64,000 nt of DNA from Psammoneis japonica (taxonomy: Eukaryota): contig QPGO01000066.1 in assembly GCA_008632985.1 (NCBI GenBank), positions 327,771 to 391,770 of the forward strand, given 5' to 3'. The notes beneath the pieces are model-generated. The model was given only the letters and a program-made list of their open reading frames with translations, did no database searches and was not told where the DNA came from. Of the stretch, positions 4,192 to 31,987 are shown in pieces. How positions within the stretch are numbered: the first letter of the stretch is position 1; every line of letters begins with the position of its first letter. The translations under genes and the position numbers were made by a program.

Positions 4192-5826
4192 ATGCCTGAC
4201 TTCACTGAATGCTTGTCCGATTCGGCTCCACTTCTTGAGAGGGGGGAAGAGCACAATCTAACATGCGCCATTGGCACCATGACGTCTGGGCACACATTCG
4301 AACGAGATGGAAAGGTGGTCTTGTCAACATTGTTGGGCCTCAAACATGCAGCGCAAGGACAAGGCAGCAAATGTGTTTTGCATTGGAACACTCAATGCTC
4401 AACAAATGGAGCCGCTCGTCAAAGACAAAGTCAATCTGCTCCATGTGATTGCATTTTTTTCTTTGGCGATTTGCGTGATTCGAAGGGTCGATGCTTTGCG
4501 ATCATTTGCACTTCGCCTCGAGACAGCGATCAATTGTTTCGCCATGCAAAAGACAAAGCAGTGGGAGACAGTTTTCTCATTGTGGAGCCTGTCTTCACAA
4601 ACCATCTCTCACCAGGAGCTCCGATGTTGGAAACACGTCATCCGCTCCTGCCACTTAAAAATCCACAATCTCTGTTGCGCGAGATGCCGTTCCATCGTGC
4701 AGATCGGGGTGAGACACGTTTCTTTGCTTTGAAGCACAGAATTGTTGATTTTGTGTCAGCTTCGTCAGCTCAACATGACGCATCTTGTGGCGGAACGTTG
4801 TGCGACCGTCAGAGTGCAATTCCTGTCACCGGTTTGTGTGGTTGTTTCTACAAAGGACCTCCGCATGCAGTCGTCATGCAAGGATCTGTCACAATCTTAA
4901 CTGATCCCACCATTGCTGCATTCTTTAAGATTGTGAGGGAAGAAGACGGCAGTGAAGCAAGTGAAAATGCAAACAACAGCGGCGCGACGGATGGCGACAA
5001 TGAAGAAAACAATCATGGCAACAATGGGGATGACAGACGCGTTCCAGGTCCAGGTGGGACCTCGCACTGCTGAACTGTGACATCGACAGTTTTTTGAATC
5101 TCGTCGCATGTCGCGCATGTAGAATTCCACGTGATTTTTTGATGTTTTGTGTCATTTTACGGTGCACTTGTTGAGCGATCCGTCCAAAAACTTTTGACAT
5201 TTTTTGTTACAGCGCGATTCTACAATGTCTTAAAAATCGCGCAGGGCAGGTGCATTTGCAAAAACATCGAGTGGTGAGAGGCACAATTGCACCACAAACT
5301 TGGCCGTTTGTTTGATGTTGAAGATGAACACATCCATTGGTTAAATTCTCGCACTGCGGAGCTCGCACGTAGAATTCTGCGGGCCAAATGTCACACGGAG
5401 TCCCACCCAGGGCTGGAACGCGTCGACAACAATGACCACAACGAGTTGATTGTTGATGACATTGAAGAAAATCAGGAAGAAAACGACAACGAGAGAGAAG
5501 CAACATGCAACGGCAATCCAGATGGGGTTGATGTGCAAGCGCATGTTCCTGCTCGTCACGACATGTCGAATCGGTTGGCTGTTGTTGACTTTCGGAGTCA
5601 TCGACTGACCCAAGCGGTGTTTCGAAATCCTGTTTCAACGATTGATCCATCGAACTTTAACAGAGGACAATTTCGCACAAGCGTGAAACAGCTGTTTCAG
5701 TGCGTCAACGAACATGGTGGATGGACTGTGATTGCTTGGTTCCGTCAAGGAATGGTTGTGGACATGGGTGGCAACCGAAACGACGATGCTGACGAGACAT
5801 TCAGCGAAACTCAAAAGCTTGCATGA
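4192..5826 (+). pseudogene. Unknown Cys-motif protein (CxGxxCDRQ...CGC; GGWTVIAW) interrupted by a MITE
   Basis: ORFs 4192..5073 and 5287..5826 join in frame (GDD-N-NDHNEL, acidic/Asn linker) when 5036-5424 and one TSD copy are removed. Confidence 0.65.
5036..5424 (+). mobile_element. ~390-bp non-autonomous TIR element (MITE), copy 1
   Basis: Termini GACGCGTTCCAG...CTGGAACGCGTC. 4-bp TSD GACA at 5032-5035 and 5425-5428. Aligns end to end with 31598-31987. Confidence 0.92.
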
Positions 5827-6235
5827 GCTTTTTATTCCCCACTGCTGCCAACATACGAGGTGCAGCATTTCGTGCTCTGCAGCACAGGCAAGGCAACGCC
5901 AACGCACCCATTGTTGTTGACTGAGCAGTGCATCGGAAGATTCATGCAATGCATGATTGTACATCACAATTCTGCAGGTGTGTGTCTCAAAAGAATGACA
6001 GTGAGACATCGTGATGCATGTGCCAGCACAACAAGTCGTGCCCCATTTCATTGCATCGGCGCTCGTTTGGGCAAAGGTGCTGCACCATGCAAAATGTTCG
6101 CCTTTGTTTCATGCACTCTCTCTCTGCGTGCTGGCTAGAGCCCACCCGGAGCCGGCACTGTGTGTGAGACCAGTTGAGACACAGACATTGTTGTGTGTTT
6201 TTTTGTCCATTTTACAGGATTTAGATCTTCAGCCA

Positions 6236-6270
6236 GCCGGTGCAACGGTGCCCGGCACCGTTGCACCGGC
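6236..6270. repeat. Perfect 35-nt palindrome (17-bp arms)
   Basis: gccggtgcaacggtgcc-c-ggcaccgttgcaccggc. Confidence 0.85.
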
Positions 6271-7026
6271 ATTGTCATTTGGGGTTGTCCCATTCGTGGA
6301 ATGACTTGTGCACGACAATTGTGGGAAACAAGTGAGAGGCAGCATTTGTGGTTGTTTTGTTCGTGGAATGACCAATGACAAAAACAATGAGAATCCACGC
6401 AGGACAGGGCACTTGCTTTTGCAGTGCTGCGAATTGCTGAACAATTGTGCGACTCAAGTGCCCGAACGACGATTGTTGCTTCGGGCATGAAATTCGAGCT
6501 TCGCGCACGTAGAAACCATAGAAAATGTGCCAGCATTTGAGAATGTCCGATTTGTGTAGATCACGCAGCACAGCACCACGAGGTCATTTGATGAAATTCC
6601 CTCGACGACTCACACGACCACAATGAGATTTTCAACGCCATGTGCCATGCAGAATGGACATCTGCGTGAAGGGAGAATGTTGCTTCGGGCAATGACATTC
6701 GACCTTCGGGCACGTGAATCGCGCAATTGTCCAGCAATTCGCAGCGTGCAAGGCATGATGCATGTGTGGGACCGATGACTTGTGAGCCAGAAAGATTGTT
6801 GCCTTTGCAGCGAGTCTTTGCTGACATCTGGGACACACGGCATTTTGTCGCATTTGGCGACATTTTCTTAAATGAGTTGATTGTTTGTCGCGAAAAGACG
6901 CGAGCTGCGACAAAATGTCCGGGTTGGCGACAAACGGGACAGAAACATTGTCCAACCAAGTCACAAAATGATCAATGTCATTTACAACTAACCTGCACTT
7001 TGGCGATGTCGTTCAAACAAGTGGGG

Positions 7027-7680
7027 CAATTAACAGAATTTGGCGATCGATGTCATCGACGAAAATTCATCCGACAAAATTTGTCGCACCCGACAAATTT
7101 GTCGGATGTCCGACAAAATTTGTCAGCGTGCGACACGACAAGACACGACACGACAAGACACGACACGACACGACACGACACGTCACGACACGACGACTCA
7201 CGAATGAAACACCCACGCCCCCCACACACGCCAACCGCCAACGTCTCCATTGACACTGCCGGCATGTCTCTTTTGCACGATGATGCAAAGCGACGATCAT
7301 GCCGCTCTCGGCGGTCTCCATGCTCTCGTCAATGCCGGGACAACATGGTGCACTTCTGCACAGTGCAACGGAGTGTGCCGGCATGTGTTGCTGTGCTGTA
7401 CCTTTTGTCAGCACGACTGGGCACTTCTGAATGTTGGGGAGCGTTGCATTGTCGGCATGTCGCAAACGTCCGTCTGTCGGCGTTTGTCGGCTCTTGTCGG
7501 CTCTTGTCGGCGTTTGTCGTACGTTGTCGGGGTTTGTCGGGGTTTGTCGGGGCTTGTCGGGGCTTGTCGGGGTTTGTCGGATACGACAAATTTTGTCGGA
7601 CGTACGACATGTCCGACAAAATTTGTCGTATCCGACAAAATTTGTCGTACGTACGACAAAATCGCCAAAACATTAATTAA
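7027..7680. repeat. Inverted arrays of CGACAAAATTTGTCG near-palindromes with inner (CGACA)n and (TTGTCGG)n short repeats
   Basis: Motif clusters at ~7070-7125 and ~7580-7665. CACGA repeats 7131-7195 and 10-bp xxxTTGTCGG repeats 7475-7580. Outer ends AATTAA...TTTGGCGAT and ATCGCCAAAA...TTAATT are inverted. Confidence 0.8.
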
Positions 7681-8204
7681 TAAGTACAGTCTTCGCCGAA
7701 AGTTAAATTCATCATATAGCACTGTATTTGATATAACGTTTGTGTTTAGGACACGCCATCGCCAATAAAATGATGATTTTGTCTTATTTATCGCCAACGG
7801 TTGAAATTTGTCTCAAAGGGCGTTTTTCACGACAAATCGTCCAATTCATTTATGGGAATGTCGCAATTGGCGACAAAATGCCTGTGTCCCAGAGCAAAAG
7901 TCATTATTTTGACTTGGAAATGACTTATTATGGAATATTCTTTAAGTAATGGTATTATTGAGAATGACTTATTGTAACAGCCTTTTAAGTAATGTGGTTT
8001 GTTATTCAATAACTTATCATAAAAAAACCGAACGTGCCTATAAGTATTAGACATTGTGAAAAGTAGTACGTAAGTTTTGTATGGATCTGTACGGAGTGCG
8101 TATTTTGTGATCACGCTTTGTGCATGTAAAGGGCACTGCTGCATTTTCGCATTTTTGGAGTTATCGGAATCGAAATCGGGATCCGTTTGTTGTTTTAATG
8201 TTGT

Positions 8205-8517
8205 CCCAAGAGCTACTGGCTCGGGCATCGGGCTAGCTTCACTGCTACTTCGGTGGTTTCGGCTACAGTCACTCTGAGTTCTCGCTTTTAAGTGAGATCC
8301 GTTGTGAAGTTGGTCGGAAACAACTGCAAAACTACACACGTATATTGATGCCGGTATCCTAAATCTGTTGTCTTGTTCTAAAGTCGTCCCAAGAGCTACT
8401 GGCTCGGGCATCGGGCTAGCTTCATTGCTACTTCGGTGGTTTCGGCTACAGTCATTCTGTGTTCTTGCTTTTAAGTGAGATCCGTTGTGAAATTGGTCGA
8501 AAACAACTGCAGAACTT
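8205..8517. repeat. Direct duplication (~130 bp conserved, period ~183 bp) upstream of the 8534 gene
   Basis: tcccaagagctactggctcgggcatcgggctagcttca...aacaactgca occurs at ~8205 and ~8387. Confidence 0.85.
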
Positions 8518-8533
8518 TCTAAGATTTTCAGAA

Positions 8534-11500
8534 ATGGGTATACCTAGCATTCCATGGTACGGCGACGCTCCGAGGCCTCGATGGCCATCGGAACAACAAC
8601 CGGATTTAGTATTTGAGAAACCGAAAGCACCGTTCAAGTTCAAACCCGAGAACGTAAAACGATATGGATTACTTTCCAAAAAATGGAAGACGGAATCTGT
8701 CAACAGATTAGAGGTATCGGAAGCTGGGGCTTATACATTATGGGACGGACACAGTAAACCACACTGCCAAAATCCTCGTTCTGATCGTGGGAAGCTAAAC
8801 AAACTGGCAAAAGAAAAAGGTGTTCCTATCAATAGAATAAAAGGGACGTACATTGACCCTGGCGAGTTTGTGCACATTGACCATGAAAGCGATTATTGGC
8901 GTGATTGTTTTGCACCCCATTTGTCCAAGTTGGATATCAAGGGATTGGTTGACGACATATTGAAGTCTCATTCAGAAGATACTGGTGACCGTTTAAGAGG
9001 CAATGTCACTACAGGCGGTGGATATGCTTCACAAAACATACGGTTGAATGAAGAAGGAGTAACAGAACCTCAAGTCACTAAGGGGCTTAGGAAAGAGCAC
9101 GTAGAAACAATGTGTTGCATGTCTGACATACTTTATGATTGGGTAAAAGCTACTCCCGGATGGGACGAAGTACCGTTTACTGCAGACAAAAGGCGCAACG
9201 ATTACTTTGCTTCCAAACTTTGCGATAAATTTGGTCTCAACCGTATCAACAAGAACGGCAAGCAGGCACAACTGTTTGAGCACTTTACACTGGCTATGAC
9301 TTCGTTGGACGAGTTAGATCCTATTACCAAACTGGCTATATTGCTCGGATGCCATGTAGACGACTTGAATTGTAGGAAACAAAACTACAACGCTCTTATG
9401 TGTATATACTTTCATGTGTGCATTGATGGTGAGTTGTTACTATATTCTGTCTTTCATTTTTAATTCGTGCAATATACATGCTCTAACGTCGTTATTGAAT
9501 TATTTTCTATCAGGCAAATGGTATCGAATTTGTCTGATCGGATATAGTCGTCGTTGCTGCTCCGACTACTTCACTCGTTTAGCTGGCAGTGACGAATTTC
9601 TTCACCAGATGTTGAACTTCTTCCACTCCTTGCCCGAAGAGTATCGCCAAATCAATGCACGTTTCTTGCTACCATCACGTTCTGTTGGGGTTCACCATCC
9701 TTTCCCCAACATGAACAAAATGGTGTGGCACTCGGCCTTCGCCTCTGCCATACTGTGCGTGCTACGGTCTTGTCCAATCTCCATGGAGCAAGCTTGTGAG
9801 TTGCTCTTGCCAGTGGGATGGTTGACCACCCCCATTCAGATGTACGAAGTGTATAAAGGATGGGCGAAGAATGGTCTTCCCACCACCGGCAATCTCACCA
9901 AGGTGATCATCGATGAATGCGTGCGCCGTTATGGTGGGTTACTGCATGGCGACGGCAGTCGCTTGCAGCCAGCATTCAATTGCTCTACTACAGACGTGGC
10001 GATATATCGTGCATTGTTTACTCTTCTTCAATCTATTCGCAAGTCTAACGCTGGGGAGTTAGATTACGAAGGAGTAATCAAGCTTCTGACGCACCATGAC
10101 AAGAAGAATAACGTTCCAAATGTGATTGGTGTGAGGGATATTGGTGCACAGCATCTGGTTGCAGTCGGCAGCATTGTAGCCATGTACGAGGATGCAACGT
10201 TGGTGGAGCAAGCTCGGGTGTGTTCATCCACACGCACGTATAAGGTTGTCAACGAGACATTCGGAATTAGAGCTCCCGTGGTAAACGAATGTTACAAGAA
10301 GTTTGCTCGACTCACTGGTACAAATACAGCAGTGTCGGAGAATGTTGCTTGTGAACAACTCAGAACTTTGGGTGAAAATATAGACGGTGTGACGTCCGAG
10401 CTTGTCAAGAGTGGCATTTCTCAACGGATGCAGAAGAATGGCCACTGTTATCGACCCGACACTGTTCACCATGATCAATCGATCTTCGAAATTGAAAACG
10501 GCATTAGGATGGAATCCTTCAAGAAGTATCATTCGAATGAAGGAGAGGAGCACGATCTGGTGCGTCAGCCAATGGAACTTCCTCAATACAAGGTCAACAA
10601 GAGACTTGATATAGATTGTCCCTGGGTGCTGGGAAAGTTTGCATCCCTGAAACCAGTGGAAGTAAAAACTTCCGAAACATCCGTCCTCCCAGAAGATCGC
10701 AAGAAGAACGGTACTAGAAAGAAGAAGAGTGCCAAATTCAACAAAAACAGTCACTCTGGCATAGGAAGAAACTACGCATGGGAAGCAGCTCTTCGAGAAA
10801 AGATAGACAAGAATTCCAAGCTTGACTTTGAGATCACTAAATGTGAAGAGAATGATCGACCTTACTACACCAGCGTCAGTGAAGATCTCAAGTTAACGTT
10901 GACTCTCAGCAGACGAAGCGTGACTCGGAACTCGACGCGTCCCGACTTGGAAAGTATATTTGGAGCCAACCAATCAGACGGCACCTATCGAACAATAGAA
11001 TTGGCGAAATTGGCCATGACTAGTCTTGGTGCAGTAGCTTCTCGGAAAAGGAAAAGAGGGAAACGCCAATTGGTCCATTTTACAACCAATGAACAATTTG
11101 GTCGGGATCCTATTTTTACTGCCACTTTTAATTCTGTGCAACAAGTGCTTTTGCGGAAGAACTACCACGATTGCATTTTGCCATTGGAAGGACTGGTGGC
11201 ATATGAGAGAGATGTCGCGTTCTACCAGACACGTGCACAAGCCGAAGCCGCTGTCCTTCTGAAAGCTATCTTGTATCACACGTTAGGAACTAAGACGCGT
11301 TCGGAAACAAAGACAGATCCAAAATGGGCTATAGATTTTCTACCAGATTCAAGAATGAATGCTTTGGGTAGAGATTTTGTCGTGTTGCACACATGCACTA
11401 GTGCGGGTCATGGTAAAAACTCAAGAGCAGCAAATACATTGCTTGGTGTGCTATTCTTTCGAGGCGGATGCCGGATTTTGTCTATTCCTACCGACAAAAT

Positions 11501-11546
11501 GGATTTGAAAAGGATGTGGCAAGACTACTGTTTACAAAAGTTATAG
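8534..11546 (+). CDS. Intact two-exon ~975-aa protein (8534-9428, 9514-11546); candidate DNA base-modification enzyme with a TET/JBP-like 2OG-Fe motif set and an HhH/aG/PT-pyrophosphorylase-like region
   Basis: Intron 9429-9513 (GTGAGT...CTAAC...CAG) joins two long ORFs in frame. Motifs: CHVDDLN (HxDxxN), RICLIGYSR, VIGVRDIGAQHL and SENVACE. The gene model is well supported; the functional call is tentative. Confidence 0.6.
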
Positions 11547-11694
11547 TTGAAGTATGTAACCACCAGTAAATACTTGCCAATGGTTGAGCATTCAATGTTA
11601 TTGTATCGCTAACAATTGTTTCCGTATCCACAGGAATTGTCGTACAACTGCCTTTATAATGTGGCAAAATTGCAAGCTGGGGAAGGAATCGACA

Positions 11695-14600
11695 TTACGA
11701 TCGAGATTGTTGGTCATCCGTCCGTTGGCGCTGTCGACGACTTTGCTCTTCTCTGTCAATGTTTTCTCTTGTTCGTCTGTGACTGGGAACACCAGGTGGC
11801 AGCTCCATAGTTCCACAACGGATGATCCGTAAGTCATTCCCAGCTTCATTCCATTCAAGTACTTTCTCCCGAGCAATGTCATAGGCAGCCTCGGCCGATG
11901 CAGGACGTCGATGTTGGTGTATTGCATTTTGCCATGCAGCTTCGAACGTCTCTCTTTTGGCTTTGTCACCATCAAATCCGCACACAAATGCATAGTAAGT
12001 CCAAGGTCGCAGGAAATCAGATGACGACAATCTTGATCCTGATCCTCGATTGTGCTCATCAATCCGACGAAAAAGATTATTGGTGTGACCAACATATGTA
12101 GACGTGTTGTCTTTCACTGAAAGCAACAAGTACACAAATCCCGATTCATCCCTGGGATAATCAAAGTCTTTCGGACGGTATGGAAAGCATCTTAAGTCAA
12201 GCTCCGGTAGAGTCGTTTCACTCCCTTGAAATTTCTTAAGGAAGTAACACATGAAATCTGTGTATTGAGTGTGACGGAGGAGTACGTTAGCCAGAGCATC
12301 TGCTGTTTCATCAGGTTCGCCAACAAAGATGGTGTCTTGTCCACGTCATGTTCTAGACAAGAGAACTACAATCTGTTCTCGCGTCCAAAGAGAATGCTCC
12401 TTCGATGCATTGATTTCTGTCACCAAAGTTTCTATTGTTTGACCCATGATGGAGTGATTGGTGCAAGCAACTCGATGTCGCAAACCACATTGAGTCCGTC
12501 GAACTTGAAGTCCGCCTCGGAAAGAATGTGTTCTCGATGGAACACAAGGCATTGAAACTTCTCTCCATTGCAATTGAAGAAGCAAGGATTTGGAAGCACC
12601 TTGAGGAGGAAGACTCTTACATCCCTCAGGGGTGACCATCACTCGAACAGGTTCCATGTTGCGCACTTGTTGGGCCGATGGCATGTCTTCCTCGCACATG
12701 GTAGCAAGTTGCTTGGCAGAGCATTCGTTCTCTCTGTTATGTGACACTTCATAGACTGCTCCGGGAAAGAAAAGTAACTCCGACGGCATCTTTGATTCTT
12801 TGGACAGATGTTTTGACACCATGGCCGAGCGGCTAGCTCTCCAATGTCCTTCCTGCGTGGATTCTTCATCCTGAGCCATGGCCGTGACACTTGGCACGTG
12901 GCCAGTGTTGCGCATCTTGTCAATGAGCATCTTCTCTGCTTGGAAGACGGCATTCCACCTCCCGAACACCCTGAGAGCTGAGTCCGGAATGCCGGGGTCG
13001 TCCCAACCTGGGACATGATGGAAAACAGACTTGATGAGACTTTTAAACTCCAACATTGTCTCTTGTCTTAAGTCTGTTGGAAGAATTCTTGTTGTGTCTT
13101 GTACTCGTTTGCATGGTTCATCTGAAGCGGCTCTCACAGATTGCTTCAACTGAAACAATGCAAAAGATGTCAACAAAAATGGAGACAACAGTGGAGGACG
13201 ACCTCGAACTGGGGGCAACTGCAAAGGGTCCATCGCAGACATGACCAAAACGCCACCCATGAAAGCATTGGATCTGCGAATACGACGCAGCAAAACATCC
13301 AAAGCAGCAAGCAACTCCGCTGACACCTGTCCAAGTTCGTCTGTTAACAACACGTCTACGCATCTCAAGTGCAGCATTTCCTTCGGTTTACTGCACAGTT
13401 TCATGATGGCGAGTTCAGCTTGTCGTGCGGGGGACCTGTGACCAGGCCTTAGTCGAGACCATCTGTGCATGTGCCGTCCTCCCAAAGCCAATGCACGCTC
13501 GGCCATGTGAGCTGTCAACAAAGTGGCAAGGCCACGAGACATTGCCTTGATGCCCGCTGTCTCCACTCCACAAAAGGTTTTCCCACACCCCGGACCACCT
13601 GTGACACAGACAGATTTTGTGACCGTTCTAGTGTTGGCAACACAACTGTCCAATGCATTGTCCATTTTGTTGAGAACCAGACGTTGTTCCTCGAAAGACT
13701 CTCGGTTTTGTTGCTCAACATCAAAACGCACTTCGATCTCATCATGAACCGGGTTGTCAATGGCAGCTTCCAATGTTGCATCTTCAGATGGCAAAGTGAC
13801 ATTGGTCAAGTGTCTTAACCGAGCAATCAGTGTGTGGCACAAGGTGGGCTGCAATTTGTTTCGATGTTCATTCAAATCATTGTCCACCTGACGAACTAAG
13901 TGAGTTTGTGTTGCGGAAGGAGTTTCACCCAACGGAAGGCAGTCATCTGCCACAATGCCGCACAATGCTCGTTTGGCATCAGCACTCATTCTGTCAAAAC
14001 TCTGAGATCCTCCCGGAGCACACATGAGTTGTTCCCCCATGTGCCGTCGCAAGAGCCGGCGACAACATTCTTCCTCACGGCCAAGAACCAGCAGTTTGCT
14101 GCTCATTGAAGCTTGTCTCAGATTTCCGCCGGCAAATGTGTCACACTCATTGTCCATTTTACCCACACTTGTGACAAGGTGCACGACAAAAGCCTCCGGT
14201 CTGCTTGGACGGACACTGTTGAACCACACCACAGGCAGAACCTGTCCCTCATCTGAAGTGTCAAGAAAGAGGTTTGCACGTTTGGCCAACCACGTCTTGT
14301 CTCTCAATGACAACGAATGACAAGGAGCATTGGTCAAGCGGTGCAGTCGATTGAATGTGCGTTCCATTTGAATTCTTGGAGACAGGTCACCAGCAACGCA
14401 TCCAAAATCTTCATCCGTCAATGTCGCCACACATTCAATTGCCTCAGGAAGAGCTGCGACTCGCAATCTGACGCCACAATTTGTTCCATCTGTCCAGCTT
14501 GTTTTTGAGTGACACTCATCCAATGCTTCATCAAATCGCAGCTGAGCATCATCGAAGGCACCACATCCACTTAAACTGTCTCGTGTGAACCATCGGAAGC

Positions 14601-22600: not shown

Positions 22601-23235
22601 TTTTATGATGTGCAAGGGATCGCACACAGAACAGTGCCAGGTGCTCAAGGACATGCTTCATCAATTTTGGACATCTTGCTCAACAGCGCCTGACAAAGTT
22701 CTCATTTCATGACAGCAAACACCGCCCCACCGAAGCACAAAGTGTGTGTGCACTTCTTGGTTCTTCCTCTCAGCTCTCCACATCACATCTGTGCAGCACA
22801 CTCATCTGACTTGTTCCCACCGAGTGATCATGGCTGTGCACAAGGAAGAGCCTCATCACAAAGAATTTTTGAGACACTTAAAAAAATCCTTGAGTAAATT
22901 GTTGTTGTTTTGTTGCTTCTTTGTGGTCATTTTGAGTCTTGTTTGTGCCAAAAACTCAAAAAAGTGAGATGACAGATCCTCAGAAAATGCAAAGAAGCAT
23001 TGATTTGCACCTGGAATCTTGCAAAAATTGCAAATGTTTGTTGAGATTTCTTGTGCACAAGCAAAGCAAAAAAAAAAGCAACCGTGTGGGTCTCAGCAGC
23101 ACAGGTTCTGCATGCAAGGCATTCCATCAATTGGCAGAGGGCTTTTGCCATGTGGCAGGACGGCACTGCTCATGGTGCCAGCTGTTTGGTGTTTGAGGGC
23201 AGAGCTGGCTCTTTTCACTGAGCACCTTTTGACAT

Positions 23236-24460
23236 CATTTTTGTTTCTGTCCACAACAAAAGCAACCTTCTTCCAAGCAGGAAATGATGGCAAGTGGAGC
23301 TTGTGGCTTGCAGTTGTTTCTTTCTCAACAACTGTGCAACTGTGACAACTTTCTGGTGTTGTTCATTTCTGACAAGAACAGCGATGCTCTCATTTGTCTC
23401 ACTGACCAGATTGCACATCGGGCTGTGTGTTGCTTCATTGTCTGATTTGCACCTGTTTTGTCTTGTCATTTCTGCGCTGAATGACATGCTTTTGCTGCCT
23501 GTTTCCTGCCCTTTGTTTTTTCCATGCGTCCCACCAGCTCCTGTTGTTTTTTGCAGTCCCCACATGAGAGTGCCCCAAGCGCTTGCCCAGAAACACACCC
23601 CGGCATGGATTGCCAGGCAGATGCAGAGCTGATCAGATGGAGAGCAATGACAAGTGCCTCTCACAAAGCACCCAGGGTCACAAGCCCAAAAATGTTGCTT
23701 GTCGTTTGCAATCCAGATGGCCAACAACCTGCAAGGAAAAATGCTTGCTGCAACTGCCAGGCCCACTTGACGGGCTCCAGTTCTGGGCGGGACTCCATGC
23801 GGCATTGGGCCCACAAAATTCTGCACACAAGCTCTGCAGCACAAGAGCTCAATTGACGGAAGCACTCATCTTCAACATGTCAAACAAAAGAGCAAGTTTG
23901 CAGTGCATTCACACCTTTCCATGCTCAAAGTTTTTGAACATCCACCTGCCTCGCACCATTCCCAAGACATTTGAGAATGGCACAGAAGCAAAAAACATGT
24001 TGTGCTGAAAGTTGGCAAATGGACAGCCCAACAAAATTGTGAAACAAAAGGACACAAAATTCCACCACAAAGTCATGCAGAAATGAATGTGTGCAACATG
24101 CAGCACAATCCAAAAAACTGTTGACATCACAGTTCAGCAGTGTGAGGTCCCACCCAGAGCTGGAACTTGTCACTTTTGGCATGTCACCTCCATTGACAAA
24201 AATGTGTCAACCAAGGAGGAAGGAAATGGAGCAAAGTTCCAAATGGTGTCATTGGGTCCCGTGATGAAGTGTTGGAATTTCTGAGACTTGAGTGCGCACA
24301 AACCAGCAGTGGTTTTTGCAAACACAGGGGCTGGAGCTGCCTCCATTGGCAAAACAAAGCATTTGCACCATGCTGCCAGAAGGCATGGCCCAACTGCCAG
24401 CTGTGCCATCAGATCTGCAGAGGTGCACATTGATGGTGTCAGTCAAGGTGCCATTTGGCA
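23236..24460 (+). repeat. Dispersed ~1.2-kb repeat, copy A (copy B at ~46695-47810), containing an old MITE copy at 23769-24171
   Basis: Colinear similarity from ttgtttctgtccacaacaaaagcaacc to gccatcagatctgcagaggtgcacattga. The MITE has a TSD of ACTT. Confidence 0.85.
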
Positions 24461-27400
24461 AGCCAGTTTGCAGAAGTTGGGGCACAATTCACTGAGACAA
24501 ATCAAGGGAGAGAGACTCATGTTCTGGGGATCATGGTTGTGTGCTTTTTGACTTGCACAGGAGATGGCAAACTTGATGACTCACTCACCTTGGCACACAG
24601 ATGATGCAGCCATCCTCTTCAGAGAAACACCAACCAACTCAAGTCAGCTGTTTTGGAGCGACACACAAAATCACACTTGTTGGCTGGCAAGCCCATGTTT
24701 GATCTTGTTGTGGTCTCCTTGACAAAAAAGGTCCTTGCATTCAAAGACAACCCAACCCTGAAGGAAGAGGATCCAAGATGAGGCGTCAAAACCCAAGCAC
24801 AAATGGGCAACCCTGACTGTGAATGTGTGAGGGCATCAAGCCAAGATTGTGCACTTGGAAGCCACAAGATGACACCATGGTTGAGAGACGAGCAATGTCT
24901 CAAGACTGGGCAGCCACACAAAGTTCAAAAGTGCTTGGATTGGATGGAACTTTTCACAGGCACACATGTCCTCAAGGAGCTGTGGACTGTGGCAACAAAG
25001 AAAAGTGAGCAAATCATCAGAAGCTCGGCACTCAAAGTTTCAACAAAGATTGGTGTGAATGTGCCTGAATGAAATTTAAAAATGGAAAACCAGGCTGGCT
25101 GACAAGAGCTGAGAAGCTTGTCTTGTGCCTCACAAAAGCAACACTGCAACCACCTGTCTCTGGGCTGCCAACTGCAGGCACCATGTGTGGACAAACTGGC
25201 TTGCACTCCCTCCTTGGATTGGCAGGTTTCTCTTGGAGTTCATCACTGAATTTCCTGATGTGACTGCATCCCTGCCTTCCTGATGAACAGGCCTTTTTTA
25301 AGTCAACAATGGAGGTCAGTGCATTTTCCACTGAGCGGAGCAGTCTGATTCAGGCCGCCACCTTTCACCTGGACAACTTGTCCAATGTTTCTCTTGTTGG
25401 CAGAAATGACTTCAACGAAGTTTTCTTTTGCATCAAAAAAGGTTTTGACCCAAGCAAGCTGTGTCACATTGGCAGTCGCCAGAGCTGGTGCACACAACAA
25501 TGCAGTGGCTGTTGCAGATTCAGTTTTTGCCACCATGGGGACTGACATTTTCTCCTGAGCAATTTGCAAGAGCAGCACAAATGTTTTTCATTGCACTTTG
25601 CTTGCAACGCAGTGGTGCTCAATTCTCTTCACACAATTTCTGCCAATCAACGTTGTGCATGTTGATCTTTCATTTGGGGTTTTTGCATGCAAAAGTGAGC
25701 GGCACACTGCCTTTGTCAGATGCGTTTTGTGTGGACGTTTGTCACCTGTTTGTTTTCGTTTGTTCTCAGCAATCAATCCAAACGTGTCCTTTGCTTGATT
25801 TTGATGCATGGCAATTTGACAACAACATTGCATTTGTTTTGAAACGTTGTCTTTGACAGTTGTTTTCAACAGCTCCACCTTGCACATGCCTCGCTGCAGT
25901 GGCTGGTGTGCCCTCTGCACCCAAGTCACCCCCCATGTGCACTTCCTGCCTCATTTTTCCAGCACTTCCCAGAATTTCAGTGCACAGCTCTCTGCCCAGT
26001 TTCAAGTGCACATTCCACATGTGCGGTTGTCTGTGCACTTCACAACAGTGCATCCTCTCTCCAAATTGCATTTGACCAGAGCATGTGCTGTTGTGATTCA
26101 TGCACATTCTACGTGAATCACAACTGACTTCTTGCCATGGTGGTCAGCAACTTTGCCCCACCCCATGATGAGGTTGGCCCCAACCCTTCCTTCCAATTTC
26201 CCAATGAGGTTGATTTTGATGACATGGAATGTTTTGCCAACGGCTTTGGAATGGAGTTGTTTGGTCTCAAGCTCAAAAGCATGGTTTCAACGCATGCATC
26301 CAAAAAGCAGCTCTTCTTGGAGAGGATGAAATGGACTCCCTCTCCACAATTTCTTGCTCTTCCCTTCCTTTGCCACAAGCCAAAGTTGCGTTGAATTCCA
26401 CATGTTGTGGAAGTCATCCACGCCAACAAGGTTGTCAGGAAAACTCTTGGATGCCCTGACATTTGGTCTTGCATCAAGACTCGTGGTTGGCCCCTGAAGA
26501 AATCCTGCATGCTGAAAGGTCAGTGCATTCTTTGTCATCAAAATTTGGAGGAAGCTCTCTGTTTCTCCAAACTGCCTGGAGAGACTTTTAAAGAAGAGGA
26601 GCACCATGTGCAACTTCACCGCAACATCAAAGCGATGGCAGAGTTGTTCATGCAGTCATCACCGGCGACAACCCAAATGATCCTGTTTCTGGCAAGCCTT
26701 GTTTCCATTTTTTTTGGTGCAAAAATCTCCAAGCATTGATCAACAACCGTGCACAAGACCTTCAAGGAGCATTTTTTGTCACCAAAATCGTCATGCATCA
26801 CATCCACTGCAAAGCAAATGACTTTGGCTGTTGGTTCGCGCAGATTTTTTGCCATGTCAATGCCCAAAAGGAGTGGTGCATGTTTGTTGGCAGCTTTCCA
26901 GTCACATGCAATTCTGATGACCTGGGATCCCAGATGGGTGAGATCAAGGAATTCCTCACAACGGACAAAATTGGTGACACAAAGACAACTCTGTGATGAT
27001 GGCAGGTGACTCCCTTGCCCATCGGGAGGTGTGCAAAGAAAAAATCAATTGCATGTTGAATCATGAATTTGGGAAGCGCTGTCCTGAGGAGAAACCTGGC
27101 ACACAACCCAGGCATGGCAAGTTGCTCACAATTTTTTGTTGCAGAGCACGTGGTCAGAGGGCTGGCTGCATTGATGATGACAACAAACAACAGCATCAAT
27201 CCAAAACCAAATGCAAAATCAGGAGGACCCACAAAGATGGCACCTGTTTGTGTGACGGCATGTCCCCCCCCTGTTTTTCCTTCACCTCCTGTGTGCATTT
27301 GTTGTCTCATGCATCCTTTGTCCCTGTTGTCTTGGCGCGCCCCACAAGAGCCTTGACCGTCCCCAACAAGAAGTCAAGGACCTCATCACGCTGGAACACG

Positions 27401-28429
27401 GCATGTCCTCCATTGTCTGGTGACGTGCCATCACCCAGGGAGGCATGCCGCACTCTCGCCACTGACCTTCCCACTTTGTTGGAAACCATGGATCATGCAA
27501 AATCCTGTTCTTCCCCAAAAGGTCCTCCCTCCAAGCTGCCCACCTCTTGGCCGGTTGTTGCCACAAATCTCCTGGCTGTTTTGTCTCCTCCACTGGACCC
27601 CAATGACATGTCGTGGCTGGACATGTCTGCCCTCTGCCAGTGCTTTGACCCACCCAAGTGCTGATCTGTTGCATCAGAGGAAGTTGCTGCCCATGTGTCA
27701 TGCCTTTGCATCATTGACAAGGCCGCTGACACTGAGCATGTGCTGCACCATTCCACTGCTGACTTTCACCCTGCAGACAACCTGAGGGAAAACTGGCACA
27801 TGTTTTCCAACAAAACTCCCACAAGCAATCCCGCCACTGCCTCCCATGTCAAAGCTGAGTGCCCTCCTCACCTGGATCACTGCTTGGAGAAACTCTCTGT
27901 TGCTTGACAAGCAAACTCTCTCCACAAGGGCACTTTGGTTGCCCTCGTGTGTGAATTCCCACCCTTTTGCTTTTCATTTTGTTGAAGGGTGAGTCAAATC
28001 TAAAACACGACGGATTGCTTGCAGCTGAGAAAGAAGACAGACAAAGGACCAAGTTTTGCTGTGCTGGGCAGTTGCATCATCCAAAGGAGCCCGGCTCCAC
28101 CAAATCAGCCTTGATGTTTTTGATCCTGACAAAAATTGGACGCCAACAAGTCACCCAAAATCAAGGCCATGGTGGCAGAAATTCTCAGCTTAGCTCAGCT
28201 TTGCAAAAATGAGGTCGAGCTTTGGAAGCTCAGCAACCCTCCACCAGTCAACTGGTTGCTTCGACACAACAAGAGTTCAAAAGCACTGTGTGACGAAATG
28301 GGTTGTCTGCATTTCCAACAGGAGGACATCACCATGCAGGCATTGTGCATGTCCCAGACACATGTCAGTGTTGCAATGTCATTGTTTTTGCACAGTCAAT
28401 GTTTTTTCATTGCGACAAACAAGTTGCAA

Positions 28430-30190
28430 TGCAACGGATGATTTTCGCAAAAAAAAATTGAAGATTTGCATGCTGCTGCTGTTTGAAGGCCAGCACAAAA
28501 CATTTGTGTGTGCATTTTGTGGTGTTGGTCCACTTGCACAAAAATTTCTGTGAACACATCATGAAGACTTCAGTGCCAACAAAAAGAATCATTCAAATGT
28601 TCATGCTCCAATCAAACACAAAAGCCAGAGTGCACAAGTGTTTTGATGAACAGCCTCAACACACGAAGCTTGTGCAAATTGTGTTCAAAATGGCGGATTT
28701 TGTGTGCCACCTGGGGCTGGAACACATCATGCTTTTTGCTGAAAATTTTGAAGATTCACACACCATTGATGTTTGAAGGTTGGCACAAAACATTTCTGCA
28801 CGCACTTTTTGCAGCAGTGGTCCACATGCAAAAAATTCTCTGTGATGAAAGCAGCAGTGCATGCCCAGCGTTGTTTCCACAGAAAAGTTTTGTGGCGCAT
28901 GTCCTGAAAGGGTTTGAGCACTGACAAAAAACCATTTAAATGTTTGCACTCAAATTGAGCACAAAAGCCAGAACACACAAACGAGTTGTGACACAACGGA
29001 TGATTTTCGTGCCAAAAAAATTTGAAGATTCGCGCATGATTGCTGTTTGGAGGTCAACTCAAAACATTTCTGCATGCATTTTGCAGCAGTGGTCAACACA
29101 CAAAAAATTCTCTGTGATGAAAACAGCATTGCACACCCAGTGTTGGTTCCTCAGAAAAGTTTTGTGACACATGTCCCACAAGGATTTGAGCACTGACAAA
29201 AAAAAAAAATTGAATTCTCGCACTCAAATTGATCACAAAAGCCAGAACACACAAACGAGTTGTGACACAATGGATGATTTTTGCCAAACATTTTGAAGAT
29301 TCACACACCATCACCATTTGGAGGTTGACACAAAACATTTCTGCGCTCATTTCACAGCAGAGTTGTGACACAATGGATGACTTTCACCAAAAAAATGTGA
29401 AGATTCACACACGATTGCTGTTTGGAGGTCAACACAAAACATTTCTGCACGCATTTTGCAGCAGTGATCAACATGCAAAAATTCTCTGTGATGAAAGCAG
29501 TGGCACACACCCAGCATTGTTTCCACAGAAAAGTTTTGTGACACATGTCCCATGAGGATTTGAGTGCCGGCAAAAAAGCCATTTAAATGTTCACACTGAA
29601 ATCAAGCACAAGCAAAAGCCAGAACACACAAACGAGTTGTGACACAATGGATGATTTTTGCCAAAAAAATTGAAGATTCACACACGATTGCTGTTTGGAG
29701 GTCAACACAAAACATTTCTGCATGTGTTTTGCAGTGGTGGTCAACACACACAAAAATCTCTGTGATTGAAGCAGCGGTGCATGCCCGCATTGGTTCCTCA
29801 GAAAAGTTTTGTGACACATGTCCCACGAGGATTTGAGCACTGACAAAAAAACCATTTGAATGCTCGCACACAAGTTGAGCACAAAAGCCAGAGCACACAA
29901 ACAAGTTGTGACACAATGGGTGATTTTTTCCAAAAATTTTGAAGATTCGCACACCATCACACCATTTGGAGGTTGACACAAAACATTTCTGCACGCATTT
30001 CACAGCCAAGTGGTCCGTTTGCAACAAAATCTTTGTGATGAAAGCAGCAACGCACACTCAGCATTGTTTCCACAGAAAGGTTTTGTGACACATGTCCCCA
30101 AAGGATTTGAGCACCAATGAAAAATCCATTTAAATGTTTGCACTTTAATTGAGCATGAAAGCCAGGATGCACAAGTGTTTTCAATGTGCA
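28430..30190. repeat. Degenerate tandem repeat, ~270-bp unit, about 6-7 copies
   Basis: Recurring aaagccagaacacacaaacgagttgtgacacaatggatgatttt...gaagattc...caaaacatttctgc...agaaaagttttgtgacacatgtcc near 28620, 28965, 29240, 29615, 29885 and 30160. Confidence 0.85.
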
Positions 30191-31597
30191 GCCTCAATGC
30201 GCGAAGATCTCAAAAATTGGTTTCAAAAGGGAGCATCATTTTGTGTGTCACCTGGGGCTGGAACACATCACCAATGCAGTGCTTCTTTTGTGATCCAAGC
30301 CAACAGATTTGCGCAAGTTGGCAAAGAGTTGCAAGCAGACCAGACTGCATCACACAGCAGGGTGAGTGAGTGCTTTCAGACTCCACACCTGTCATTTGTG
30401 TTCATTGCATGTGCGCCCCATTGTGGCTGTTTGTTGGGGCTCTCTGGCATTGCTGATGGTTCCTCCAGAAAGAGACACCATGATTTTTTTGGTTTTCTTG
30501 AGGCAATCCAAAAGCCCCAGAAGCTTGGTGTTGGCCAAGCACAGGGAAGGAACGCAGCAACCGCTGCTGGCATTGTTTTGTTGCCTTTTTTGTTTTTTGG
30601 GTGGGTCATTGTGGCCAAACAAAACTTCTCCCAGAGGGAAAACCAAGGGATGTTGTTGTGAACTTGCTTTGATGCAGTCAGAAACTGTGACAAACGCAAA
30701 AAGCACAACAGGGTTGTCCAGAGGGCGGACATGTGGCTGGCGACCCTTTTGCACAAGCCCAGCAACTGGGCTGCCAAACAGCACCAGCAAAGGAAGAACA
30801 AGTGGCGGGAGTTTTGCCAGCTTTCTGTGTGCAGAACAAACGGTTGTCAGGAATGGACAGGCGTCAGATGAAGCATGGACAGACCGCAAAATGTGTGGGA
30901 ACTTTCTCATAGATTCTACAAGACAAACGGGCGACAGACAGACAAATGCGACAGAAGAAGTCGATTTCCGTCGTCCCCGTGCTTTTTGTGTGGCATTCGA
31001 TGCTGACAATGGCATGCCGCCGGTGACACCATTGACTGATTTTTGTGCGACAAAACGCACTGGACATGTCGCATGGCGAGCAACAAGTGCAGATGTGTGC
31101 CCATGTTGACTCTGGATGCAGTTTGTGGTTGATTTCAGAGCATCGTTGTCAATGGCTTTTTTTGCAATTTTCTATGTGAATCACGTGTGGCAACAATGCG
31201 GGATGTTGATGACAATGGCATCATCTCGAATGATCGATCAGAGCTGTTGGACAGACACCAGTGAGCCAAATGTTGCATCAGCTGCACTCATCATGTTCAC
31301 ATTGTCACTGAAGCATGCCTGAAATCAGTGTGGACATTGTTTTCATCCCCACATGGTCGCCATTGTCGCTTGTCATGTTGTGTTGCGTTTTTGTGCGTCT
31401 CTGTTGCATTTTTCGATCCAACCTCATCTCTTTTTTAAAATTGTGCGCAGTTTCTACATGATTGTTTTGCCGGCAAAATGCCAGGAAACTGGCGTCTGAT
31501 GCCTGTTTGTTCTTTCTGCAGCTTTCTTGGACATGACTCCAAAATCCAGTGGATTGAGGGTGGGGTGGCCCTCATCAAAAATGTGAAGGCTGTCAGT

Positions 31598-31987
31598 GAC
31601 GCGTTCCAGCCCCAGGTGGGACTCCGTGTGACATTGGGCCCGTAGAATTCTACGTGCGAGCTCCGCAGTACGAGAATTTAATCAATGGATACATTTGTCT
31701 TCAACATCAAATAAACGGCCAAGTTTGTGGTACAATTATGCCTCATGCCACTCGACGTTTTTGCAAATGCGCCTGCCCTACGCGATTCTTAAGACATTGT
31801 AGAATCGCGCTGTAACAAAAAATGTCAAAAGTTGTTGGACGGATCGCTCAATAATTGCACCGTAAAATGACACAAAATATCGCAAAAATCACGTAGAAAT
31901 CTACGTGCGCGACATACGACGCGATTCAAAAAACTGTCGATGTCACAGTTCAGCAGTGCGAGGTCCCACCTAGACCTGGAACGCGTC
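31598..31987 (-). mobile_element. ~390-bp MITE, copy 2 (least mutated)
   Basis: Same TIRs as 5036-5424. TSD CAGT at 31594-31597 and 31988-31991. Retains 19 TpA sites inside a TpA desert. Confidence 0.92.

What the first reader, a model, noticed from the sequence alone, without database searches (positions are those of the whole stretch)
5036..31987. Two MITE copies give the mutation spectrum: A in 5'-TAY is the preferred target and TTAA is resistant
Manual alignment of 31598-31987 (reverse complement) with 5036-5424: of 19 TpA in copy 2, 12 are changed in copy 1, all to CA (8) or TG (4), and copy 1 gains none. Read on the strand carrying the mutated A, 10 of 12 are TAC/TAT and 2 are TAG; both TTAA survive. 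Reciprocal sites (gaCAaaTGtatc vs gaTGaaCAcatc; ccTGgg vs ccCAgg) fit independent hits on either strand. Known: TadA deaminates A in a UAC context and TadA-derived base editors favour TA; polymerase eta makes A->G at WA; 5-formyluracil mispairs with G. Inference: candidate mechanisms are a natural DNA adenine deaminase, error-prone repair synthesis, or thymine oxidation.
Basis: partly seen in the sequence, partly recalled or inferred. Interest (0 to 1): 0.88.

Follow-up and report, generated by a model that had tools for sequence, protein, structure and literature searches.

The report
TpA-erasing hypermutation seen in MITE copies
Two copies of a very abundant small transposon differ mainly because one has lost its TA dinucleotides to CA or TG, and the same directional loss has erased almost all TA from about two thirds of this 64-kb window, matching a TpA-specific hypermutation so far reported in one alga.

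Summary
Copy 2 has 19 TpA and copy 1 has 7. The 12 lost sites read CA (8) or TG (4), copy 1 gains none, 10 of 12 lie in TAY, and both TTAA survive.

Window-wide TpA O/E is 0.22, and it is 0.07 in 43.5 kb of "deserts" where total YR stays at 0.99. In a desert gene, 13 of 18 Tyr-conserved columns now read Cys (TGY) or His (CAY). TpA and CpG counts fall together across five MITE copies.

The context rule also holds at scale. Desert TpA retention is TTAA 0.27 down to ATAT 0.005. A two-strand additive model with TAT > TAC > TAG > TAA fits with R2 0.95.

Two caveats apply. Most of the 12 sites are polymorphic across thousands of family copies, so the pair alone gives neither rates nor polarity. Which base is hit, A or T, cannot be told.

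The signature matches TpA-only A:T>G:C hypermutation in Bigelowiella natans (bioRxiv 10.64898/2026.01.13.699255). Its main text gives no flanking-base rule. The mechanism, probably adenine deamination, is inferred. Polymerase eta is disfavoured.

The parts
5036..5424 (+). MITE copy 1, the more decayed copy: 7 TpA, 26 CpG, 69 CA+TG. It is flanked by the 4-bp duplication GACA (5032-5035 and 5425-5428).
31598..31987 (-). MITE copy 2, the less decayed copy: 19 TpA (O/E 0.70), 31 CpG. It forms a 330-bp TA-dense islet inside a TA desert. The 4-bp duplication is ACTG in element orientation.
40997..41393 (+). Related MITE copy 3. Its ends are 85-90% identical to copy 1, its interior differs, and its duplication is GACA. 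It has 5 TpA and 19 CpG.
23769..24166 (-). Old family copy 4 (69% identical): 0 TpA, 5 CpG, 93 CA+TG. It lies inside a duplicated segment.
47214..47485 (-). Old partial family copy 5 (70% identical): 0 TpA, 1 CpG, 69 CA+TG.
12434..31642 (.). Largest TA desert. 500-bp bins hold 0-8 TpA against 27-45 expected. The longest TpA-free stretch is 2182 bp (22895-25077).
40918..51472 (.). Second TA desert (0-7 TpA per 500 bp). CpG is also very low here (O/E 0.14 in 44001-48000).
837..7398 (.). TA desert that contains copy 1. Copy 1's 200-bp flanks are each covered by one contig at depth 57-59.
7399..12433 (.). TA-dense island (252 TpA, O/E 0.64, CpG O/E 1.01).
37339..40917 (.). TA-dense island (O/E 0.50) holding the DUF7640 ORF.
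51473..62050 (.). TA-dense island in three runs (O/E 0.49-0.54, CpG O/E 1.1) holding the 2501-codon DUF7507/DUF11 ORF.
12349..19691 (-). Hypermutated part of a large PIF1-helicase gene, seen as two ORFs of 1368 and 883 codons with 0 and 1 Tyr. At 27 Tyr-rich columns of its homologs the window reads Cys 10, His 6, Phe 7, Tyr 1 and other 3.
11698..12345 (-). GIY-YIG tail of the same gene, in frame behind a TGA and collinear with homolog P0028. It is not hypermutated: Tyr is 4.2%, and 3 of 5 Tyr-rich columns keep Tyr.

Best explanation
Shown: the two sequences are copies of a very abundant 390-bp MITE with 25-bp inverted ends and a 4-bp target duplication. Their differences are dominated by loss of TpA to CpA or TpG in copy 1.

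This is the local read-out of a regional, directional, TpA-specific A:T>G:C mutation process. That process has removed about 93% of TpA from roughly two thirds of the window and left sharply bounded islands untouched.

The rate depends on the base 3' of the A, in the order T > C > G > A. It adds up over the two strands of each TpA. TTAA is slowest because both strands read TAA, and ATAT is fastest. CpG is lost to the same products (TpG/CpA) in the same regions, but more slowly.

Inferred: the process is enzymatic and chromatin- or element-targeted, not a replication bias. Most likely adenine in 5'-TA is deaminated to inosine, which is copied as G, by a deaminase related to the tRNA enzymes ADAT2/TadA. 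This has been proposed for Bigelowiella natans. Young MITE insertions still carry their TpA and lose them with exposure.
For: Direction:
- TpA O/E is 0.22 in the window (946 observed, 4244 expected) and 0.07 in 87 desert bins, where 192 TpA are left. There CA and TG stand at 1.69 and 1.68, and total YR at 0.989.
- At 18 columns where at least 50% of at least 20 homologs have Tyr, the desert gene 12349-19691 reads Cys 8 (all TGY), His 5 (all CAY), Tyr 1 and other 4. Control columns are kept: Phe 26 of 34, Trp 26 of 28, His 15 of 16, Cys 13 of 14.
- TpA and CpG counts fall together across copies: 19/31, 7/26, 5/19, 0/5 and 0/1. Since CpG decay runs one way, TA-rich means young.
- 24 TA-polymorphic sites plus 5 further TpA of copy 2 compare with 27.4 TpA expected from composition.

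Context:
- Desert NTAN retention runs from 0.273 (TTAA, 52 sites in 48 distinct 10-mers) to 0.005 (ATAT).
- The additive model has R2 0.95, and desert against island context distribution gives chi2 112, p=3e-24.
- Product excess is TGC/GCA 2.04 and TGT/ACA 1.81 against TGA/TCA 1.43 and TGG/CCA 1.46, with islands at 1.17-1.25. That is about 3:1, as a TAY rule predicts.
- Among converted Tyr codons, a preceding pyrimidine gives Cys 4 and His 1, and a preceding purine gives Cys 4 and His 4.

Regionality:
- The desert/island boundary falls inside one gene, between 12396 (converted) and 12264 (Tyr kept).

Precedent:
- In B. natans mutation-accumulation lines, 230 of 231 mutations in two integrated viral regions were A>G or T>C, all on TpA. 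An ADAT2-like candidate was named (bioRxiv 10.64898/2026.01.13.699255; abstract, Results and Discussion read).
Against: - No enzyme, inosine or modified base was or could be examined, because no genome is held.
- The data are strand-symmetric, so T>C at R-T-A explains them as well as A>G at T-A-Y.
- The fitted order TAT > TAC is not TadA's UAC optimum (recalled). The only DNA-active ADAT2 whose context I read prefers GAA for adenine, not TA (PMC10354150, passages).
- Family frequencies do not track the context constants. An ATAT site keeps TA in 83% of depth while GTAT sites keep 21-31%. The family pattern is therefore shaped by subfamily history.
- At the two GTAC sites only CA is seen (60-70%), with no TG row among the 40 shown.
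- 19 of the 59 read laying rows were not shown, so "no variant at TTAA" in the family is unverified.
- The run laid may be the sample the window was assembled from, so it is not independent.
- The desert constants were fitted on bins that include copy 1 (7 of 192 survivors), a small circularity in the test.
- In the one island tandem array examined the spectrum is ordinary (44 transversions, 4 TA>CA/TG, 2 CA/TG>TA). The process is not seen there.
Confidence: 0.55

Rival explanations
1. The direction and context rule are the same, but the chemistry acts on the thymine. T in 5'-RTA is oxidised by a TET/JBP-type dioxygenase to 5-hydroxymethyl- or 5-formyluracil in silenced, methylated chromatin, and is then miscopied opposite G, giving T>C.
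For: - TpA and CpG loss coincide across 126 bins (Spearman +0.75), as expected if both marks sit on the same silent chromatin.
- In dinoflagellates 5hmU is made by TET/JBP enzymes, is enriched on repeats, overlaps 5mC and silences transposons. Older work found it preferentially at TA and TC (PMC11572971, passages).
Against: - TpC shows no clear conversion to CpC (TC O/E 1.02 in deserts against 1.22 in islands; CC 0.86 against 0.91).
- Base-resolution mapping in Breviolum found no TA preference (PMC11071213, passages).
- 5-formyluracil also gives transversions (recalled), whereas YR content is conserved at 0.989 and the B. natans events are 230 of 231 transitions.
- The organism is not identified, and no dioxygenase could be sought.
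Confidence: 0.2
2. The 12 differences are not independent hits in copy 1. They were inherited from different master copies (subfamilies). The pair therefore samples family history, not a per-copy mutation spectrum. This does not exclude the process above.
For: - At 11 of the 12 sites the alternative state is carried by 6-79% of the summed family depth.
- At 7 of the 11, copy 1's state is the majority.
- Copies 1 and 3 share derived states at alignment columns 26 and 76.
- Only 5 changes of copy 1 are nearly private, with its state at 5% of depth or less (5118, 5188, 5234, 5266, 5386). None of these is a TpA loss.
Against: - Thousands of copies exposed to one hot-spot process would also give intermediate frequencies by recurrent hits.
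- Four sites show both CA and TG derivatives (5275/6, 5309/10, 5325/6, 5338/9). That needs at least two events per site.
Confidence: 0.5
3. The polarity is reversed. Copy 2 gained TpA by C>T at CpA, either RIP-like or through non-CpG 5mC deamination, and the reciprocal sites descend from CpG.
For: - Majority rule gives CA/TG at 7 of 11 sites.
- In-window outgroups have CA at alignment column 82 and TG at column 376.
- 8 of copy 2's 19 TpA abut a CpG as CGTA or TACG.
Against: - Old copies have 0 TpA and the surrounding DNA has TpA O/E 0.07. A TA-creating process predicts the opposite.
- TA-rich copies are also CpG-rich.
- Tyr codons became His or Cys in the desert gene.
Confidence: 0.03
4. The cause is error-prone repair synthesis by a Y-family polymerase (polymerase eta type, A>G at WA), or a biased T:G mismatch repair like the very-short-patch repair that depletes CTAG in E. 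coli (recalled).
For: Both are known routes to A:T>G:C change in a short context (recalled, no call).
Against: - ApA is not depleted (O/E 1.27 in deserts against 1.19 in islands), so the motif is TA, not WA.
- CTAG is not the most depleted tetramer in deserts. ATAT and ATAC are.
- A repair bias needs prior mismatches. It does not explain a boundary inside one gene, or the 1000-fold regional rates measured in B. natans.
Confidence: 0.05

Closest known systems
TpA-specific hypermutation of integrated viral DNA in Bigelowiella natans (Mettrop et al., bioRxiv 10.64898/2026.01.13.699255, 2026)
   Same: - Changes are A>G/T>C only on TpA, giving TpG/CpA.
- The process is regional with defined limits.
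- The long-term trace is TpA depletion with CpA+TpG enrichment in clusters and in transposon-like coding sequences.
- An adenine deaminase is proposed.
   Different: - Here there is no measured rate, only the fossil trace.
- The trace covers 87 of 126 bins of this window at O/E 0.07, whereas in B. natans the 5% most extreme 1-kb windows start at 0.43.
- A MITE family and a PIF1/GIY-YIG gene are affected.
- CpG is co-depleted.
- A 3'-neighbour rule is found. The words trinucleotide, flanking, context and CpG occur 0 times in that main text.
- Whether this window is from that species is unknown.
Repeat-induced point mutation (RIP) of fungi
   Same: It is a regional, dinucleotide-specific transition hypermutation that ruins mobile elements and leaves a compositional scar with fairly sharp limits.
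   Different: - The polarity and product are opposite. RIP is C>T at CpA and creates TpA and stop codons. Here TpA is destroyed, TAA/TAG disappear and reading frames stay open.
- Dependence on repeats is not shown. Copy 1's TA-free flanks are single-copy at 80% likeness or more.
Adenine deamination by TadA/ADAT2 and derived base editors; BjADAT2 acting on DNA (PMC10354150)
   Same: The 5'-T before the target A parallels U33-A34 of tRNA (recalled). A pyrimidine 3' of the A is favoured, as in UAC (recalled).
   Different: TAT is at least as good as TAC here. BjADAT2's DNA motifs are GAA for adenine and TCG for cytosine. No enzyme was examined.
5mC deamination at CpG
   Same: It gives the same products (TpG/CpA) and acts on the same regions. 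Old copies 4 and 5 keep 5 and 1 CpG against 31 in copy 2.
   Different: It explains only the CpG part. It is slower here (desert CpG O/E 0.55 against TpA 0.07).
Introner-type MITEs of Amoebophrya (PMC7789003)
   Same: Both are short elements with 8-20-nt inverted ends and 3-5-nt direct repeats sitting in reading frames. Removing copy 1 plus one duplication restores the frame.
   Different: The frame around copy 1 has 0.3% Tyr and lies in a desert where long ORFs are artefacts. No RNA evidence was obtained, so no membership is claimed.

Membership tests
TpA-specific A:T>G:C hypermutation (B. natans type) | Changes are A>G/T>C transitions. | tested here: met
   Desert YR total O/E is 0.989 with TA 0.07 and CA/TG 1.69/1.68. 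Tyr codons became TGY or CAY at 13 of 18 columns. CpG decay occurs in addition.
TpA-specific A:T>G:C hypermutation (B. natans type) | Changes are restricted to TpA and spare other A/T contexts. | tested here: met
   Desert O/E is AA 1.27 and TT 1.29. AT at 0.87 is accounted for by ATA/TAT being the preferred contexts.
TpA-specific A:T>G:C hypermutation (B. natans type) | The process is confined to delimited regions. | tested here: met
   Deserts and islands alternate. One boundary lies between 12396 and 12264 inside a single gene.
TpA-specific A:T>G:C hypermutation (B. natans type) | The targets are foreign or mobile DNA. | tested here: inconclusive
   Deserts hold a PIF1/GIY-YIG gene with 2142 homologs and old MITE copies. 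The nature of the islands is unknown, and two ORFs had no viral relatives.
TpA-specific A:T>G:C hypermutation (B. natans type) | There is a measured de novo rate about 1000-fold above background, active only in some lines. | not testable with these tools
   This needs mutation-accumulation lines or population data from this organism.
Fungal RIP | C>T at CpA produces a TpA excess. | tested here: not met
   TpA is depleted and CpA/TpG enriched. The polarity is opposite.
MITE (non-autonomous TIR DNA transposon) | Terminal inverted repeats are present. | tested here: met
   21-22 of the first 25 nt match the reverse complement of the last 25 in copies 1-3.
MITE (non-autonomous TIR DNA transposon) | A target-site duplication differs between insertions. 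| tested here: met
   The 4-bp duplications are GACA (copy 1), ACTG (copy 2) and GACA (copy 3), and AAGT (copy 4, read from the alignment).
MITE (non-autonomous TIR DNA transposon) | The element is small, non-coding and high in copy number. | tested here: met
   It is 389-397 bp. 3194 contig pieces were laid, and summed depth is 19,000-539,000 against 57-59 on the flanks. The tool warns that this is not a copy number.
MITE (non-autonomous TIR DNA transposon) | A cognate autonomous element has the same ends. | not tested
   No genome is held. None is present in the window.
ADAT2/TadA-like DNA adenine deamination | The deaminase gene is present and active on DNA, and deoxyinosine is found in DNA. 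| not testable with these tools
   No genome is held. This needs biochemistry.
ADAT2/TadA-like DNA adenine deamination | The target context is U/T-A-C (recalled for TadA). | tested here: inconclusive
   The 5' T is absolute. The 3' order is T > C > G > A, with k 2.2-2.4, 1.5-1.6, 0.8-1.3 and 0.4-0.7.
Polymerase eta WA-motif mutagenesis | A>G occurs at both TA and AA. | tested here: not met
   AA O/E is 1.27 in deserts against 1.19 in islands.
Introner element | The element sits in an expressed gene and is removed from the RNA. | not tested
   No RNA run was laid. The host frame is probably a fossil (Tyr 0.3%).

The most novel reading that the evidence does not exclude
This eukaryote runs a programmed genome defence of the opposite polarity to RIP. 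A DNA adenine deaminase, or an equivalent TpA-directed enzyme, is aimed at silenced domains. It converts every TpA to TpG/CpA under a simple 3'-neighbour rule (T > C > G > A). It has remodelled a large share of the non-genic genome, so that whole 20-kb stretches lack TAA/TAG stops and Tyr codons. Together with B. natans this would make TpA editing a recurrent eukaryotic immune strategy. Its natural enzyme would be a context-defined DNA A-to-G editor.
Probability: 0.4. Interest if true: 0.88.

Novelty: new member of a known kind. Interest (0 to 1): 0.7.

Why it matters
Directional A:T>G:C hypermutation confined to TpA was unknown until a 2026 preprint on one alga. Three full-text searches found no other report.

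This window shows the same scar at far greater depth. It affects a transposon family present in very many copies and a large helicase gene. It also adds things the preprint's main text does not give:
- a quantitative flanking-base rule, which is the fingerprint an enzyme candidate must reproduce;
- co-depletion of CpG;
- a boundary that cuts through a single gene, which argues for regional targeting rather than element age.

A natural enzyme that converts A to G in DNA at a defined context would interest base-editing work.

There is also a practical point. Such DNA has almost no TAA/TAG, so ORF finders report many long, overlapping, meaningless frames (52 ORFs of at least 150 codons here).

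Tried and rejected
- **Whole genome and earlier notes.** No family-wide copy-by-copy spectrum and no enzyme search could be done.
- **More MITE copies.** A metagenome scan with a 25-nt MITE pattern found 0 matches.
- **Majority-rule and in-window outgroup polarisation.** These pointed the other way at several sites. I set them aside because outgroups in deserts lose TpA in parallel and because fix the direction.
- **Island tandem array 54860-58561 as a polarised test.** The spectrum is ordinary with small numbers: 44 transversions, 26 other transitions, 8 CpG, 4 TA>CA/TG and 2 CA/TG>TA. It is uninformative.
- **Introner reading of copy 1.** Not pursued, because the host frame is Tyr-poor and long ORFs are artefacts here.
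- **Organism.** The DUF7640 ORF's nearest Atlas cluster is mostly diatoms. Its best homologs are at most 41% identical, with diatom and dinoflagellate names among them. ORF 9369-11543 has no homolog. The organism is not identified.
- **Viral origin.** ORF 9369-11543 and the PIF1 ORF have no relatives in viral contigs.
- **Pfam over 143 ORFs of at least 110 codons.** Only GIY-YIG, PIF1 and DUF7640 pass their cut-offs.
- **A T-C-G-specific dual deaminase as the cause of CpG loss.** TCGA and ACGA are among the best-kept CpG contexts in deserts (0.73 and 0.70).
- **Sequencing artefact from a modified base.** Judged unlikely on reasoning, since inosine would become a fixed G after one replication. 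The only run laid may be the assembly's own sample, so the sequence has no independent confirmation.
- **Term-syntax errors.** Searches failed on term syntax and were corrected and resent.

Full report
**Observation.** I aligned window 5036-5424 (+) with the reverse complement of 31598-31987. The copies are 389 and 390 nt long and 91.5% identical. They differ at 33 columns: 26 transitions, 6 transversions and 1 gap. Copy 2 has 19 TpA and copy 1 has 7, all shared. The 12 lost sites read CA (8) or TG (4). On the strand of the changed A they are TAC 6, TAT 4 and TAG 2. Both TTAA sites are intact and copy 1 gains no TpA. Twelve of the 26 transitions fall on the 9.7% of bases that lie in TpA (p=1.9e-6). 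Within the pair the context bias is only marginal. Counted by hand from the table, TAY is hit in 10 of 21 strand-opportunities and TAR in 2 of 17 (p=0.034).

**The element.** It has inverted ends of about 25 nt (21-22 of 25 matching) and 4-bp duplications that differ between insertions: GACA, ACTG and GACA, and AAGT. The strand folds far better than shuffles (z -5.9). The window holds three more relatives. One public run holds the locus. When its contigs were laid at 80% likeness or more, 3194 pieces matched the element. Summed depth was 19,000-539,000 against 57-59 on the single-copy flanks. The tool warns that this is not a copy number. This is a MITE family of very high abundance.

**The surroundings change the picture.** The whole window has 946 TpA where 4244 are expected (O/E 0.22), with CA and TG at 1.55. 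The depletion is a mosaic. 87 of the 126 N-free 500-bp bins are "deserts" with O/E below 0.25, pooling to TA 0.07, CpG 0.55, CA 1.69 and TG 1.68. 31 bins are "islands" with O/E of 0.4 or more, pooling to TA 0.61 and CpG 1.04. Total YR is 0.989 in deserts, so TpA and CpG have been turned into CpA/TpG by transitions. TpA-free stretches reach 2182 bp. Copy 2 is itself a 330-bp TA-dense islet inside a desert, and copy 1 sits in another desert. TpA O/E correlates with CpG O/E (+0.75) and with CA+TG (-0.82) over the bins.

**Direction.** A pair cannot polarise its differences, and the obvious proxies disagree. At 7 of the 11 sites listed by read laying, copy 1's CA/TG state carries 55-79% of family depth. 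TA is the majority at 4 sites (site 5051 is not among the 40 of 59 rows shown). In-window outgroups show CA or TG at two sites. Three independent lines settle the direction.

- First, old copies 4 and 5 have 0 TpA and the deserts have almost none. The long-term flux therefore destroys TpA.
- Second, TpA and CpG counts fall together across copies: 19/31, 7/26, 5/19, 0/5 and 0/1. Because CpG decay runs one way, TA-rich copies are the young ones. A deamination process creating TpA would give the opposite relation.
- Third, there is a protein-level outgroup. The desert ORFs 15588-19691 and 12349-14997 (minus strand, 0 and 1 Tyr in 1368 and 883 codons) have 2142 homologs. At the 18 columns where at least half of at least 20 homologs carry Tyr, the window reads Cys 8 (all TGY), His 5 (all CAY), Tyr 1 and other 4. 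Control columns are kept: Phe 26 of 34, Trp 26 of 28, His 15 of 16 and Cys 13 of 14 (a single-homolog version is, p=1.7e-5).

In addition, the family has 24 TA-polymorphic sites plus 5 further TpA of copy 2, against 27.4 TpA expected from composition. This fits an ancestor with normal TpA content.

**Context at scale.** The 192 TpA left in 43.5 kb of desert are not a random sample. Retention relative to base composition is:

- TTAA 0.273
- CTAA 0.094
- GTAA 0.090
- CTAC 0.063
- CTAG 0.059
- GTAC 0.047
- ATAA 0.045
- ATAG 0.032
- ATAC 0.011
- ATAT 0.005

The 52 TTAA lie in 48 distinct 10-mers, so repeats do not inflate the count. I fitted a model in which each strand's A decays at a rate set by its 3' neighbour and the two strands add. 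It fits with R2 0.95. The ratio TAA:TAG:TAC:TAT is 1:1.9:2.2:3.4 against composition, or 1:1.9:3.9:5.5 against the island baseline. TTAA needs no special explanation, because both of its strands read TAA.

The products agree. TGC/GCA and TGT/ACA stand at 2.04 and 1.81, against 1.43 and 1.46 for TGA/TCA and TGG/CCA, with islands at 1.17-1.25. The excess is about 3:1, as a TAY rule predicts. Among the 13 converted Tyr codons, a preceding pyrimidine gives Cys 4 and His 1, and a preceding purine gives Cys 4 and His 4. The desert constants separate the 12 lost from the 7 kept sites of the pair (summed k 2.86 against 1.78, p=0.003). Copy 1's bins were part of the fit, which is a small circularity.

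**Limits.**
- Family frequencies do not follow the constants. An ATAT site keeps TA in 83% of depth while GTAT sites keep 21-31%. At two GTAC sites only CA appears.
- Subfamily history therefore shapes the family pattern, and most of the pair's differences are inherited variants. Only five changes of copy 1 are near-private, and none of them is a TpA loss.
- 19 of the 59 variant rows were not shown.
- The data are strand-symmetric, so "A in TAY" and "T in RTA" are the same statement.
- The reciprocal CA/TG sites fit a TpA ancestor hit on either strand. The matching position of the 5' inverted repeat is TA in copy 2. A CpG ancestor is not excluded for them.

**Regionality.** The two desert ORFs and the GIY-YIG ORF 11698-12345 are collinear with one roughly 2650-residue homolog. 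The window parts N 131-1337, C 38-883 and G 1-178 align to P0028 166-1355, 1627-2470 and 2472-2650, and a TGA lies in frame between C and G. Upstream of 12349, the 27 Tyr-rich columns read Cys 10, His 6, Phe 7, Tyr 1 and other 3. In the GIY-YIG tail, 3 of 5 keep Tyr, including two columns that are 97-98% conserved. The last converted codon is at 12396 and the first kept one is at 12264. The desert edge therefore cuts through one gene. This argues for a regionally delimited process rather than element age, unless the gene is a recombinant of an old and a young copy.

**What is known.** A full-text search found a 2026 preprint on Bigelowiella natans. I read its abstract, Results and Discussion.
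- In mutation-accumulation lines, 231 of 302 mutations fell in two integrated viral regions.
- 230 of those were A>G or T>C, all on TpA, at about 6e-7 per site per generation, and only in some lines.
- 124 genomic clusters and 324 coding sequences are TpA-depleted.
- An ADAT2-like deaminase is proposed.
- The words trinucleotide, flanking, context and CpG do not occur in its main text.

Two further searches found no other case. This window is thus a second, much deeper trace of the same kind of process. Whether it comes from the same species is unknown.

**Mechanism (inferred).**
- Exclusive transitions, an absolute 5' T and a pyrimidine-favouring 3' position fit adenine deamination by a tRNA-deaminase relative best. 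The fitted order is TAT > TAC, and the one DNA-active ADAT2 I read about prefers GAA.
- Thymine oxidation remains possible. 5hmU sits on silenced repeats together with 5mC in dinoflagellates, and TpA and CpG loss coincide here. However, TpC is not clearly affected.
- Polymerase eta is disfavoured because ApA is not depleted.
- RIP-like C>T is contradicted.

**Verdict.** Polarity and context rule are supported by evidence beyond the pair. The mechanism remains open. This is a new member of a very recently described kind, with a new quantitative context rule.

Noticed in passing
window 11698-19691 (-): Three ORFs are collinear with roughly 2500-2800-residue proteins carrying PIF1-helicase and GIY-YIG domains, some also with a Ulp1 protease domain. 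There are 2142 homologs at E<=1e-3. No Helitron Rep domain was detected. This is probably the gene of an undescribed large mobile element. The first 2250 or so codons are Tyr-free and the last 216 are normal.
   Followed up: partly
whole window: Because TAA and TAG are nearly absent from deserts, ORF listing gives 52 ORFs of at least 150 codons, many overlapping on both strands. Only 3 of 143 ORFs of at least 110 codons pass a Pfam cut-off. Long ORFs here are not evidence of genes.
   Followed up: yes
window 52634-60136 (-), array 54860-58561: A 2501-codon ORF is built of 10.7 tandem 345-bp units (83% matches) that encode DUF7507/DUF11 repeats. It lies in a TA-normal, CpG-normal island.
   Followed up: partly
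window 38365-39609 (+): This ORF has seven DUF7640 repeats and 14.5% Cys. Its homologs are at most 41% identical, with diatom and dinoflagellate names among them.
   Followed up: partly
window 23229-24450 and 46686-47815: A segment of about 1.2 kb is duplicated (78-87% identical). It includes old MITE copies 4 and 5, and both copies of the segment are TpA-free.
   Followed up: no
window 28729-30138: Tandem repeats of about 274 bp (80-84% matches) lie in a desert and carry almost no TpA.
   Followed up: no
window 4183-5823 (+): Copy 1 interrupts an open frame, and removing the element plus one GACA restores it. This looks like an introner, but the frame has 0.3% Tyr and is probably a fossil.
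   Followed up: partly
window 40997-41393 (+): Copy 3 shares the family's ends and the GACA duplication but has an unrelated interior. It is a second MITE subfamily using the same ends.
   Followed up: no
Read-laying run X3, window 5035-5187: A 154-nt contig of a small run from the same sample carries TA at all eight variable YR sites of that stretch, and CpG at 5118 and 5140. This haplotype is richer in TA and CpG than copy 2 and may lie closer to the source element.
   Followed up: no
window 62360-62624: There is a run of 265 N (an assembly gap).
   Followed up: no
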